64,000 nt of DNA from Promethearchaeota archaeon (GCA_030603385.1 JAUVXW010000003.1:1-64000); one strand, 5' to 3'; counted from the first letter of the stretch, positions 1,113 through 8,375 are shown. Notes: generated by a model from the letters alone, not told the origin. Numbers and translations: made by a program.

Positions 1113-1117
1113 GGAGG
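1113..1117 (+). promoter_or_regulatory. Shine-Dalgarno site of the histone gene
   Basis: GGAGG 8 nt upstream of ATG 1126. Confidence 0.75.
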
Positions 1118-1125
1118 AATAAAAA

Positions 1126-1368
1126 ATGGCAAAGAAAGTTTTTGCTTGGAGTCCAGTTCGAAAGTTGATGAAGGATAATGGTGCTGAAATGGTTGCTCGA
1201 GATGCAGTTGATGCCTTAATTGATTATTTAGAAAAATTAGCTAGAGGCATGACCAATAAAGCTCTTGAGATGACGCGCCATGCGGGTCGGAAGAATTTTT
1301 AAAACATCTCGATTTAAAACTTTATACTGACCCTTGGGGATATGGACTTGGCAATGACAATATTATAA
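1126..1368 (+). CDS. Archaeal histone (HMf-like), split: join(1126..1295,1326..1368), 70 aa MAKKVFAWSPVRKLMKDNGAEMVARDAVDALIDYLEKLARGMTNKALEMTRHAGRKKLTLGDMDLAMTIL
   Basis: Manual translation. Histone-fold motifs PVRKLMK, GAEMVARDAV and HAGRK; helix 3 (LTLGDMDLAM) continues in the same frame after a 30-nt insert carrying two TAA stops. Not in ORF track because the unspliced ORF is only 58 aa. Confidence 0.92.
1296..1325 (+). other. Putative 30-nt bulge-helix-bulge (tRNA-endonuclease type) mRNA intron in the histone gene
   Basis: GGGUCG-GAAG-[AA^U]-UUUUAAA-loop-UUUAAAA-CUUU-[AU^A]-CUGACCC: 4-bp central helix, two 3-nt bulges on opposite strands, 7-bp inner helix, exon-exon outer helix; canonical cuts restore the reading frame. 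Confidence 0.82.
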
Positions 1369-8300: not shown

Positions 8301-8375
8301 CAGGCCCGGGGGGAATTGAACCCCCGATCTTCAGCTTAGGAGGCTGCCGCCCTATCCAGACTAGGCCACGGGCCT
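8301..8375 (-). tRNA. tRNA-Arg (anticodon CCT), intronless, CCA not encoded
   Basis: Cloverleaf: acceptor AGGCCCG/CGGGCCT plus discriminator G, anticodon loop CT-CCT-AA, T-arm GGGGG-TTCAATT-CCCCC. Confidence 0.95.

What the first reader, a model, noticed from the sequence alone, without database searches (positions are those of the whole stretch)
1290..1333. Splicing as a possible switch between a truncated and a full histone (HAC1/XBP1-like logic)
Seen in sequence: the intron length is a multiple of 3, yet it holds two in-frame TAA codons, both within the paired inner stem. Unspliced mRNA can therefore give only a 58-aa protein lacking helix 3. Established knowledge: helix 3 and the L2 Arg-Asp pair are needed for a stable fold and for the four-helix-bundle stacking of archaeal histone dimers; eukaryotic HAC1/XBP1 mRNAs are activated by non-spliceosomal excision and tRNA-ligase joining. 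Inference: histone supply could be coupled to tRNA-splicing capacity. Other short truncated-looking genes in this lineage may hide similar BHB introns, forming a genome-wide class.
Basis: inference. Interest (0 to 1): 0.72.

Follow-up and report, generated by a model that had tools for sequence, protein, structure and literature searches.

The report
tRNA-type mini-intron splits Asgard histone gene
A histone gene of an uncultured Loki-type (Asgard) archaeon is interrupted by a 30-base hairpin shaped like the introns that archaea cut out of tRNAs, so its message almost certainly has to be spliced; nothing shows that this splicing works as a regulated on/off switch.

Summary
The histone gene at 1126-1368 carries a 30-nt insert (1296-1325) with two in-frame TAA codons (1300-1302 and 1315-1317), both in the inner stem. 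The unspliced reading frame ends after 58 aa.

The insert is a canonical hBHBh' intron. Cutting after the second base of each 3-nt bulge gives AAG AA|A CUG, that is RKKLTL. This is exactly the sequence of 106 uninterrupted orthologue loci. Excision extends the Pfam histone match from profile positions 6-54 to 6-65.

Five other carriers of the same-site intron show compensatory changes, including changes at synonymous exon positions. The genome encodes two EndA subunits and RtcB.

The same architecture interrupts a paralogous histone twice, and also UvrB, a nucleoside-phosphorylase-like gene and a LURP-like gene.

The HAC1/XBP1-like switch is not supported. The intron is sporadic (6 of 112 loci, at least 3 gains or losses). 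Related introns are 29 or 32 nt long. The two stops here are within chance (P=0.16). Across seven independent 30-nt introns, however, in-frame stops are enriched (11 observed against 4.9 expected, P=0.003), which suggests a fail-safe role.

No RNA data could be obtained. This scan has noted such introns before, in this genome and in others; the searchable literature documents BHB introns inside coding regions only for cbf5.

The parts
1113..1118 (+). Shine-Dalgarno-like GGAGGA upstream of the histone start codon
   Evidence: Read directly from the sequence. It is identical in the related metagenome contig L102.
1126..1295 (+). Histone exon 1: Met1 to the first two bases of codon 57 (helix 1, L1, helix 2 and the start of L2)
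   Evidence: ORF list and translation. PF00808 at 35.1 bits, profile positions 6-54. 96-98% identical to uninterrupted orthologues.
1284..1289 (+). 5' strand of the outer exon-exon helix h (GGGUCG)
   Evidence: Pairs with 1327 and 1329-1333; U1328 is bulged. Pairs 1284:1333 and 1288:1329 show changes on both sides among carriers.
1290..1293 (+). Exonic strand of the central 4-bp helix H (GAAG)
   Evidence: Pairs with CUUU at 1320-1323. 100% of cells are paired in 5 carriers.
1294..1296 (+). 5' three-base bulge (AA|U); predicted cut between 1295 and 1296
   Evidence: The canonical rule (cut after the second bulge base) gives AAG AA|A CUG, which is the orthologue sequence RKKL.
1296..1325 (+). 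30-nt BHB intron
   Evidence: Absent from 106 orthologue loci and present in 6. It has the architecture 1 + 9 + 5 + 9 + 4 + 2 nt, shared with other introns in this genome and its relatives.
1297..1319 (+). Inner hairpin h' (1297-1305 paired with 1311-1319, 8 of 9 pairs) with loop AUCUC at 1306-1310
   Evidence: Fold. Two pairs with changes on both sides (17:39 and 25:31 in alignment A1).
1300..1302 (+). First in-frame TAA; it ends the 58-aa unspliced ORF
   Evidence: Its position is not conserved in the other carriers.
1315..1317 (+). Second in-frame TAA
   Evidence: Present in all six carriers of this intron.
1320..1323 (+). Intronic strand of the central helix H (CUUU)
   Evidence: Invariant in 5 carriers.
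1324..1326 (+). 3' three-base bulge (AU|A); predicted cut between 1325 and 1326
   Evidence: Same reasoning as for the 5' bulge.
1326..1368 (+). Histone exon 2: third base of codon 57, then LTLGDMDLAMTIL and the stop codon (rest of L2 and helix 3)
   Evidence: The frame is intact and LTxxDMxLAM is conserved in all carriers. Synonymous divergence exceeds non-synonymous divergence in most carrier pairs. The spliced product matches PF00808 over positions 6-65 at 41.6 bits.
1327..1333 (+). 3' strand of the outer helix h (C-U-GACCC, with U1328 bulged)
   Evidence: The Thr codon is ACC in 6 of 6 carriers against 11 of 106 intronless loci.

Best explanation
The insert at 1296-1325 is a genuine archaeal bulge-helix-bulge (hBHBh') intron inside an HMf-type histone mRNA of a Promethearchaeota (Loki-type Asgard) archaeon.

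Proposed steps (inferred, not observed):
1. The pre-mRNA folds so that exon bases 1284-1289 pair with exon bases 1327-1333 (helix h).
2. Exon bases 1290-1293 pair with intron bases 1320-1323 (helix H).
3. The intron forms a 9-bp hairpin (h').
4. The two-subunit splicing endonuclease EndA cuts after the second base of each 3-nt bulge, at 1295|1296 and 1325|1326.
5. RtcB joins the exons and probably circularises the 30-mer.
6. The mature mRNA encodes the 70-aa histone.

Splicing is most likely an obligatory maturation step, as it is for tRNA introns, and not a condition-dependent switch. Unspliced message yields only a 58-aa dead-end peptide.

The in-frame stops of this particular intron are within chance. 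As a class, however, such introns seem to favour in-frame stops. These would release ribosomes that reach an unspliced intron in a cell without a nucleus.

Shown here: the motif, the exact junction, covariation, selection on exon 2, and the presence of the enzymes. Inferred: the cleavage and ligation themselves, their timing, and the role of the stops.
For: 1. Junction. About 45 same-genus orthologues and further Promethearchaeota orthologues are uninterrupted 70-aa genes reading ...HAGRKKLTL.... The window gene equals them plus 30 nt. The canonical BHB cutting rule predicts AAG AA|A CUG, the orthologue codon.

2. The rule generalises. In six further introns it reproduces the orthologue residue at the junction:
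   - paralogue intron 1: H
   - paralogue intron 2: R
   - the G022 intron: D|A
   - the G020 intron: D|I
   - UvrB: E|A
   - phosphorylase-like gene: S-T-G
.

3. Structure is conserved. In 5 distinct carriers of this same-site intron, 87% of cells are paired against 26-62% when the partner is slid, H is 100% paired, and 4 pairs change on both sides. Two of these four lie in the exon-exon helix at synonymous positions: Arg CGN/AGA with Leu CUG/CUU, and Ala GCG/GCC with the first base of the next codon.

4. Exon codon choice tracks the intron. Thr is ACC in 6 of 6 carriers against 11 of 106 intronless loci. Gly is GGA in 0 of 6 against 48 of 106.

5. Exon 2 stays coding in all carriers. The stop is at codon 71, LTxxDMxLAM is kept, and pS exceeds pN in most pairs (for example 0.75 against 0.12).

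6. Excision restores the full Pfam match: profile positions 6-65 at 41.6 bits, against 6-54 at 35.1 bits.

7. The machinery is encoded: two PF01974 EndA genes and RtcB. Asgard archaea are reported to have the (alpha-beta)2 type of EndA (PMC5829648).

8. It is not an assembly artefact. The identical intron occurs in an independent metagenome contig that is about 93% identical overall.

9. tRNA genes of this genome are hard to find: ARAGORN detects 18 in 3.9 Mb, 7 of them with introns. This fits the heavy use of BHB introns in tRNA genes reported for some Asgard archaea (bioRxiv 10.64898/2026.10.13.758758).
Against:
- The outer helix needs a bulged U1328, and h' has one A-A mismatch.
- The genome has three intact histone paralogues, so this copy could decay without cost.
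- Between the window and its nearest carrier L195, exon 2 shows pN about equal to pS (0.15 against 0.17, on tiny counts).
- The covariation rests on 5 sequences from about two clades.
- Constitutive splicing, as opposed to regulated splicing, is an assumption.
Confidence: 0.78

Rival explanations
1. Regulated switch. Retention or removal of the intron is modulated by conditions. The cell would then toggle between an inactive or dominant-negative 58-aa fragment and the full histone, coupling chromatin supply to tRNA-splicing capacity as HAC1/XBP1 couples a transcription factor to Ire1.
For: - Any BHB-bearing mRNA necessarily depends on EndA and RtcB.
- The second TAA is kept in all six carriers.
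- In-frame stops are enriched across seven independent 30-nt introns: 11 observed against 4.9 expected, P=0.003; 11 in frame against 6 in the two other frames, P=0.008.
Against: - The intron is present in only 6 of 112 parsed orthologue loci, with at least 3 gains or losses, so it cannot be a conserved regulatory device of this histone.
- The same kind of intron sits in UvrB, a phosphorylase-like gene and a LOR-family gene, and near the N-terminus of a paralogous histone, where retention leaves an 18-aa peptide rather than a truncated histone.
- Introns at the UvrB site are 29, 30 or 32 nt long.
- The two stops in this intron are within chance (P=0.16).
- No sensor nuclease was found (weakly informative).
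- Three intact paralogues are present.
Confidence: 0.08
2. Dead insertion. A small hairpin element landed in one of five histone paralogues and inactivated it. The gene is a young pseudogene and nothing is spliced.
For: Other intact histones exist. The carrier lineage nearest to the window shows no clear excess of synonymous change in exon 2.
Against: - Exon 2 is intact and conserved in six carriers from two deep clades.
- Exonic synonymous sites covary to keep helix h.
- The insert fits a strict BHB whose cut sites restore the orthologue codon.
- The same architecture interrupts UvrB (single match per genome with this query) in six of 22 genomes.
Confidence: 0.07
3. Translational bypass or recoding. 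Ribosomes hop over the 30-nt hairpin (as in T4 gene 60 or the mitochondrial byp elements) and no RNA cutting takes place.
For: A hairpin with a stop codon close to its 5' side resembles a bypass gap. UUU-UAA at 1297-1302 and UUU at 1321-1323 could serve as take-off and landing codons.
Against: - That hop would give RKNF|ILTL, two residues longer than every orthologue in loop L2.
- No matched take-off and landing codons can produce RKKLTL.
- The other introns lack matched codons.
- In every case the BHB rule predicts the junction to the base.
- The 29- and 32-nt alleles at the UvrB site need exact removal to restore the frame.
Confidence: 0.02

Closest known systems
BHB intron in the cbf5 (pseudouridine synthase) pre-mRNA of Crenarchaeota (Watanabe 2002; Yoshinari 2006; Yokobori 2009, PMC2738675)
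   Same: - An EndA-type bulge-helix-bulge intron inside a protein-coding gene.
- Patchy gain and loss among relatives.
- Hosts with a hetero-oligomeric (alpha-beta)2 EndA.
   Different: - A different phylum (Asgard) and different host genes: histones, UvrB and others, in several genes per genome.
- A uniform 29-32 nt mini-architecture (9-bp stem with a 5-7 nt loop).
- Several insertion sites within one 70-codon gene family.
- Exon synonymous sites visibly adapted to the motif.
Archaeal tRNA and rRNA BHB introns (Marck and Grosjean 2003). Asgard tRNA genes are heavily interrupted (bioRxiv 10.64898/2026.10.13.758758)
   Same: The same hBHBh' geometry, the same cutting rule, and the same presumed enzymes (EndA, RtcB). 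The intron can persist only where exon sequence can build half of the motif.
   Different: The host RNA is a translated message. Ribosomes and the splicing enzymes therefore compete for the same RNA, and reading frame and in-frame stops become relevant.
HAC1 / XBP1 unconventional cytoplasmic splicing (Ire1 plus tRNA ligase or RtcB)
   Same: Non-spliceosomal endonucleolytic excision of a short intron from an mRNA. Exons are joined by the tRNA-splicing ligase (RtcB in metazoans). The unspliced message gives a different, non-functional C-terminus.
   Different: - The nuclease would be constitutive EndA recognising a BHB, not a stress-activated Ire1 recognising twin stem-loops.
- There is no frameshift logic.
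- The intron is not conserved across orthologues.
- No regulation has been shown.
EndA substrates in Haloferax volcanii mRNAs (PMC7714728)
   Same: Shows that archaeal splicing endonuclease can act on BHB motifs outside tRNA and rRNA.
   Different: I did not read that paper's mRNA data beyond its abstract. The case here is an intron inside the coding region that breaks the reading frame of conserved proteins.

Membership tests
Archaeal hBHBh' (bulge-helix-bulge) intron | Central helix H of exactly 4 bp | tested here: met
   G1290-G1293 pair with C1320-U1323 (one G-U pair and three Watson-Crick pairs). 100% of cells are paired in 5 carriers.
Archaeal hBHBh' (bulge-helix-bulge) intron | Two 3-nt bulges on opposite strands, each directly 3' of its H strand | tested here: met
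   The bulges are 1294-1296 (AAU) and 1324-1326 (AUA), read. The same layout is seen in the paralogue, G022, G020 and UvrB introns.
Archaeal hBHBh' (bulge-helix-bulge) intron | Flanking helices h (exon-exon) and h' (intron) | tested here: met
   h has 6 bp with U1328 bulged, and 90% of its cells are paired. h' has 8 of 9 pairs here, and 80% of its cells are paired across carriers. Each helix has two pairs with changes on both sides.
Archaeal hBHBh' (bulge-helix-bulge) intron | Cutting after the second bulge base and joining the exons yields a functional product | tested here: met
   The predicted product RKKLTL equals 106 intronless orthologue loci. The Pfam match extends to positions 6-65 of 65.
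Archaeal hBHBh' (bulge-helix-bulge) intron | Host encodes the splicing endonuclease and the RNA ligase | tested here: met
   Two PF01974 genes (99 and 71 bits) and one PF01139 RtcB gene (558 bits).
Archaeal hBHBh' (bulge-helix-bulge) intron | Intron actually removed from the RNA (spliced junction, circular intron) | not testable with these tools
Archaeal HMf-type histone (PF00808) | Profile match above the curated cut-off over the whole histone fold | tested here: met
   The unspliced ORF scores 35.1 bits over positions 6-54. The spliced product scores 41.6 bits over positions 6-65. The cut-off is 21.4 bits.
HAC1/XBP1-type regulated unconventional splicing | Signal-activated endonuclease (Ire1 kinase/RNase) | tested here: inconclusive
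   No PF06479 match in the genome, which is 94% complete. The control genomes contain no positive, so the search is weakly informative.
HAC1/XBP1-type regulated unconventional splicing | Intron conserved in orthologues as part of the gene's regulation | tested here: not met
   6 of 112 parsed loci carry it, and at least 3 gains or losses are forced by well-supported branches.
HAC1/XBP1-type regulated unconventional splicing | Splicing ratio changes with conditions | not testable with these tools
   No transcriptome access.

The most novel reading that the evidence does not exclude
The in-frame stop codons are a selected, working part of these Asgard mRNA mini-introns. In a cell without a nucleus, ribosomes reach the intron before or while EndA does. 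A stop inside the hairpin releases them. Unspliced message then yields only a short inert peptide instead of a histone (or UvrB) carrying a 10-residue insertion. The downstream half of the BHB also stays free of ribosome traffic and can refold and be cut. Intron retention would then act as a tunable brake that ties the output of several genes to EndA/RtcB capacity.
Probability: 0.2. Interest if true: 0.8.

Novelty: new variant of a known kind. Interest (0 to 1): 0.6.

Why it matters
Introns in archaeal protein-coding genes are documented in the searchable literature essentially for one gene family, cbf5 in Crenarchaeota (searches found nothing on Asgard mRNA introns).

A family of 29-32 nt endonuclease-type introns that come and go in histone, DNA-repair and metabolic genes of Asgard archaea is therefore notable. 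[quoted passage not shown] It would mean that interrupted, splicing-dependent messages exist in cells without a nucleus.

This makes an old question testable: how do splicing and translation coexist on one RNA? The apparent enrichment of in-frame stops is a first concrete handle on it.

There is also a practical consequence. Gene callers truncate or split such genes: here a 58-aa "histone", and a 111-codon open frame where uninterrupted UvrB orthologues have 656-690 codons. Asgard proteomes are therefore systematically mis-annotated at these sites.

Tried and rejected

- Translational bypass. Rejected: no take-off and landing pair gives the orthologue sequence, and the UUU...UUU hop gives a loop two residues too long.

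- Stop-free 30-nt introns hidden inside long ORFs of this genome. Strict motifs inside ORFs number 278 in sense orientation and 208 in antisense. Those with a full outer helix number 7 against 7, and they translate to ordinary conserved protein sequence. There is no evidence for such introns, and the test is weak.

- Genome-wide scan false positives:
  - adjacent same-frame genes at C39:9663 and C26:1750;
  - an in-frame TGA at the Cys/Sec position of HdrA (C10:119015-119044);
  - an in-frame TGA in an SDR gene (C10:17872-17901), where homologous sequence continues.

- Possible recent transfer. A 109-nt stretch (about 1260-1368) is identical between the window and contig L102. Local identity is 95-97% and other identical stretches of more than 60 nt occur, so this is not significant.

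- Ire1-type RNase domain search. No hit, but the control had no positive.

- Other interrupted genes inside the 64-kb window. Only the histone intron is credible.

- The 29-nt hdrB intron noted earlier by this scan for this genome was not re-examined.

Full report
**What is at the coordinates**

The window is AT-rich, about 30% G+C. It lies in a 3.9-Mb, 58-contig genome. Relatives' record titles name Promethearchaeota/Promethearchaeia, that is Loki-type Asgard archaea.

A GGAGGA box at 1113-1118 precedes an ORF at 1126-1302. The ORF encodes 58 aa and matches the archaeal histone family PF00808 over profile positions 6-54 of 65. Reading on in the same frame gives NF*NISI*NFI and then LTLGDMDLAMTIL*.

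- the interruption is a multiple of 3;
- it holds two in-frame TAA codons (1300-1302 and 1315-1317);
- both lie in the paired inner stem;
- the unspliced product lacks helix 3.

**Exact boundaries**

About 45 same-genus orthologues are 96-98% identical over exon 1 and are uninterrupted 70-aa genes reading ...RHAGRKKLTL(E/G/N)DMDLAM....

A codon-by-codon comparison shows that the window gene equals these genes plus 30 nt. Only one placement reproduces AAG AAA CUG, namely an intron at 1296-1325.

**Structure**

The canonical geometry is as follows. On each strand, reading 5' to 3', a flanking helix is followed by the 4-nt H strand, then by a 3-nt bulge that is cut after its second base. This follows from the textbook 37/38 tRNA intron (my own knowledge) and agrees with the description of the motif in the preprint read.

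The region folds accordingly:
- h: 1284-1288 pair with 1329-1333, and 1289 pairs with 1327; U1328 is bulged.
- H: 1290-1293 (GAAG) pair with 1320-1323 (CUUU).
- Bulges: 1294-1296 and 1324-1326.
- h': 1297-1305 pair with 1311-1319 (8 of 9 pairs), with loop 1306-1310.

The predicted cuts at 1295|1296 and 1325|1326 are exactly the boundaries found from the orthologues.

The minimum-free-energy fold of 1270-1350 recovers the inner hairpin and the outer stem: -18 kcal/mol, z = -1.9. It pairs the central region in a register one base away from the H helix given here.

Excision lifts the Pfam match to positions 6-65 at 41.6 bits, the same as an intact orthologue.

**The rule holds elsewhere**

A paralogous histone on contig C36 of the same genome carries two 30-nt inserts. 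They are shared with genomes G019 and G069, while about 25 related loci lack them. The rule gives:
- AAA C|..|AU = His, with H helix UGAA:UUCA;
- ACG AG|..|A = Arg, with H helix CACG:CGUG.

Both are the orthologue residues.

- In G022, the orthologue of the window gene has a different 30-nt intron after MVARD. Its H helix is CUAG:CUAG and its h' has 9 of 9 pairs.
- In G020, a histone has yet another intron in helix 3. Its H helix is GACG:CGUU and its h' has 9 of 9 pairs.

All of these share the layout 1 + 9 + 5 + 9 + 4 + 2 nt.

**A class beyond histones**

I scanned the whole genome for this layout where removal restores a long ORF across an in-frame stop. Counts in sense against antisense orientation were:
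- 7 against 2 at 100 or more codons on both sides;
- 5 against 0 for 30-nt candidates in a scan over variable lengths.

Credible cases are:
- UvrB, C4:251907-251936, junction YYDYYQPE|AYMP;
- a Glycos_trans_3N/Glycos_transf_3 phosphorylase-like gene, C10:126771-126800, junction DKHS-T-GG, stem 9 of 9;
- a zinc-ribbon/LOR protein, C55:17369-17398;
- probably an AAA ATPase with a 32-nt intron, C26:16566-16597.

For UvrB I compared 22 genomes. In 15 of the 21 loci that could be read, the gene runs straight through QPEAY; one further locus lacked the search motif but has a 676-codon open frame. Six carry an intron at that very junction: 30 nt in G000 and G019, 29 nt in G002, 32 nt in G021 and G008, and a different 32 nt in G011.

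Lengths that preserve the frame are not a rule of the class.

**Conservation of the window's intron**

The identical intron occurs in an independent metagenome contig, L102, which is about 93% identical overall.

Homologous 30-nt introns sit at the same site in four other Promethearchaeota MAGs: L195, L168, L190 and L194.

On the alignment of the 5 distinct carriers:
- 87% of cells are paired, against 26-62% when the partner is slid;
- H is always paired;
- four pairs change on both sides.

Two of these four pairs are exon-exon pairs at synonymous positions:
- 1288:1329, C-G or A-U (Arg CGN or AGA with Leu CUG or CUU);
- 1284:1333, G-C or C-G.

Codon usage agrees:

| Codon | Carriers | Intronless loci |
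|---|---|---|
| Thr ACC | 6 of 6 | 11 of 106 |
| Gly GGA | 0 of 6 | 48 of 106 |

The two locus sets overlap in part, and relatives are not independent observations.

Exon 2 keeps its frame, its stop position and the motif LTxxDMxLAM in all carriers. Synonymous divergence is mostly greater than non-synonymous divergence. Selection could not see this exon if translation always ended in the intron.

**Evolutionary dynamics**

On an exon-only gene tree of 83 distinct sequences, the six carriers fall into both major clades, interleaved with intronless sisters. For example, L190 is sister to the intronless L188 with support 99/90. Well-supported branches force at least 3 changes.

The intron is thus gained, lost or transferred repeatedly.

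**Machinery**

The genome encodes two PF01974 EndA genes and one RtcB gene. Asgard archaea are reported to have the broad-specificity (alpha-beta)2 type of EndA (PMC5829648).

ARAGORN finds only 18 tRNA genes in 3.9 Mb, 7 of them with introns. This fits the heavily interrupted tRNA genes reported for Asgard archaea.

**The switch hypothesis**

Nothing found here speaks for regulation:
- the intron is sporadic among orthologues;
- three intact histone paralogues exist;
- in the paralogue, retention of intron 1 leaves an 18-aa peptide, not a truncated histone;
- housekeeping genes carry the same kind of intron.

For this intron, structure-preserving shuffles give at least 2 in-frame stops in 16% of cases.

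Two results nevertheless keep the stops interesting:
- The second TAA is present in all six carriers.
- Across seven independent 30-nt introns there are 11 in-frame stops against 6 in the two other frames together (binomial P=0.008), and against 4.9 expected from structure-preserving shuffles (P=0.003).

The sample is small, and one of the seven (UvrB) was found by a scan that required a stop.

The simplest reading is a fail-safe. Where translation is not separated from RNA processing, a stop inside the intron prevents synthesis of an insertion-bearing protein and clears ribosomes from the motif. This is inference.

One stop-free 30-nt insert exists: in L102, after MAKKV, with a relaxed BHB.

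**Rivals**

- A dead insertion is contradicted by exon-2 conservation, by the covariation, and by the UvrB cases.
- Ribosomal bypass cannot produce the orthologue sequence, and it fails for the 29- and 32-nt alleles.
- An assembly artefact is excluded by independent assemblies.

**Literature and earlier notes**

Full-text searches found mRNA BHB introns described for crenarchaeal cbf5 and EndA substrates in Haloferax. For Asgard archaea they found only tRNA introns.

This scan has already noted 30-nt BHB introns in histone and other genes, in other genomes and on other pieces of this genome. I re-derived the C36 case independently. I did not re-examine the others.

**Verdict**

This is a real, probably spliced, tRNA-type mini-intron in an Asgard histone gene, and a member of an apparently unpublished class. 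The proposed HAC1/XBP1-like switch remains an untested idea with low prior probability. The narrower idea that in-frame stops are functionally favoured deserves a proper census.

Noticed in passing
own genome contig C10:119015-119044 (+), outside the window: HdrA-like gene with an in-frame TGA exactly where homologues have the Cys/Sec of the motif ...FPTDDCSI*ILGP... It is probably a selenocysteine codon. It surfaced as a false positive of the intron scan.
   Followed up: partly
own genome contig C10:17872-17901 (-), outside the window: Short-chain dehydrogenase gene with an in-frame TGA (DINFKGA*LVSKYAAKVMK...). Homologous sequence continues after it, so this is not an intron. It could be read-through, Sec, or a lesion.
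   Followed up: no
L102 (metagenome contig Ga0209977_10000446), corresponding to window 1138/1139: The orthologue on this contig carries the window's intron and also a second 30-nt insert after MAKKV. That insert has no in-frame stop and only a relaxed BHB (H 3 of 4 pairs, stem 6 of 9). It may be a decaying or exonised intron, or a relaxed substrate.
   Followed up: partly
UvrB junction QPE|AY: own genome C4:251907-251936; loci L107-L128: One exon junction holds introns of 30, 29, 32 and a different 32 nt in six of 22 genomes. The inner sequences are unrelated but the exonic H strand is the same. This suggests repeated insertion at a permissive site, or rapid turnover of the intron interior.
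   Followed up: partly
own genome, whole: ARAGORN finds only 18 tRNA genes (7 with introns of 8-53 nt) in 3.9 Mb. Most tRNA genes are probably too interrupted for the program to detect.
   Followed up: no
own genome contig C26:16566-16597 (-): A 32-nt candidate intron (H helix GCAG:CUGU, stem 9 of 9, 7-nt loop) directly after the Walker B motif LLIDEIDKAD of an AAA ATPase. Because the length is not a multiple of 3, the unspliced message shifts frame. The downstream half has no Pfam hit at E<=0.001.
   Followed up: partly
window 8301-8375 (-): tRNA-Arg(CCU), uninterrupted; the only tRNA that ARAGORN finds in the 64-kb window.
   Followed up: no
L006 and L007 (own genome C29:22451-22537 and C5:49176-49271): Two small paralogous ORFs of about 60 aa (MAKKEGFEVLFVKSKVREYIKGKECNTSGD...) give weak sub-threshold PF00808 matches. 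They are uninterrupted and are probably not histones.
   Followed up: no
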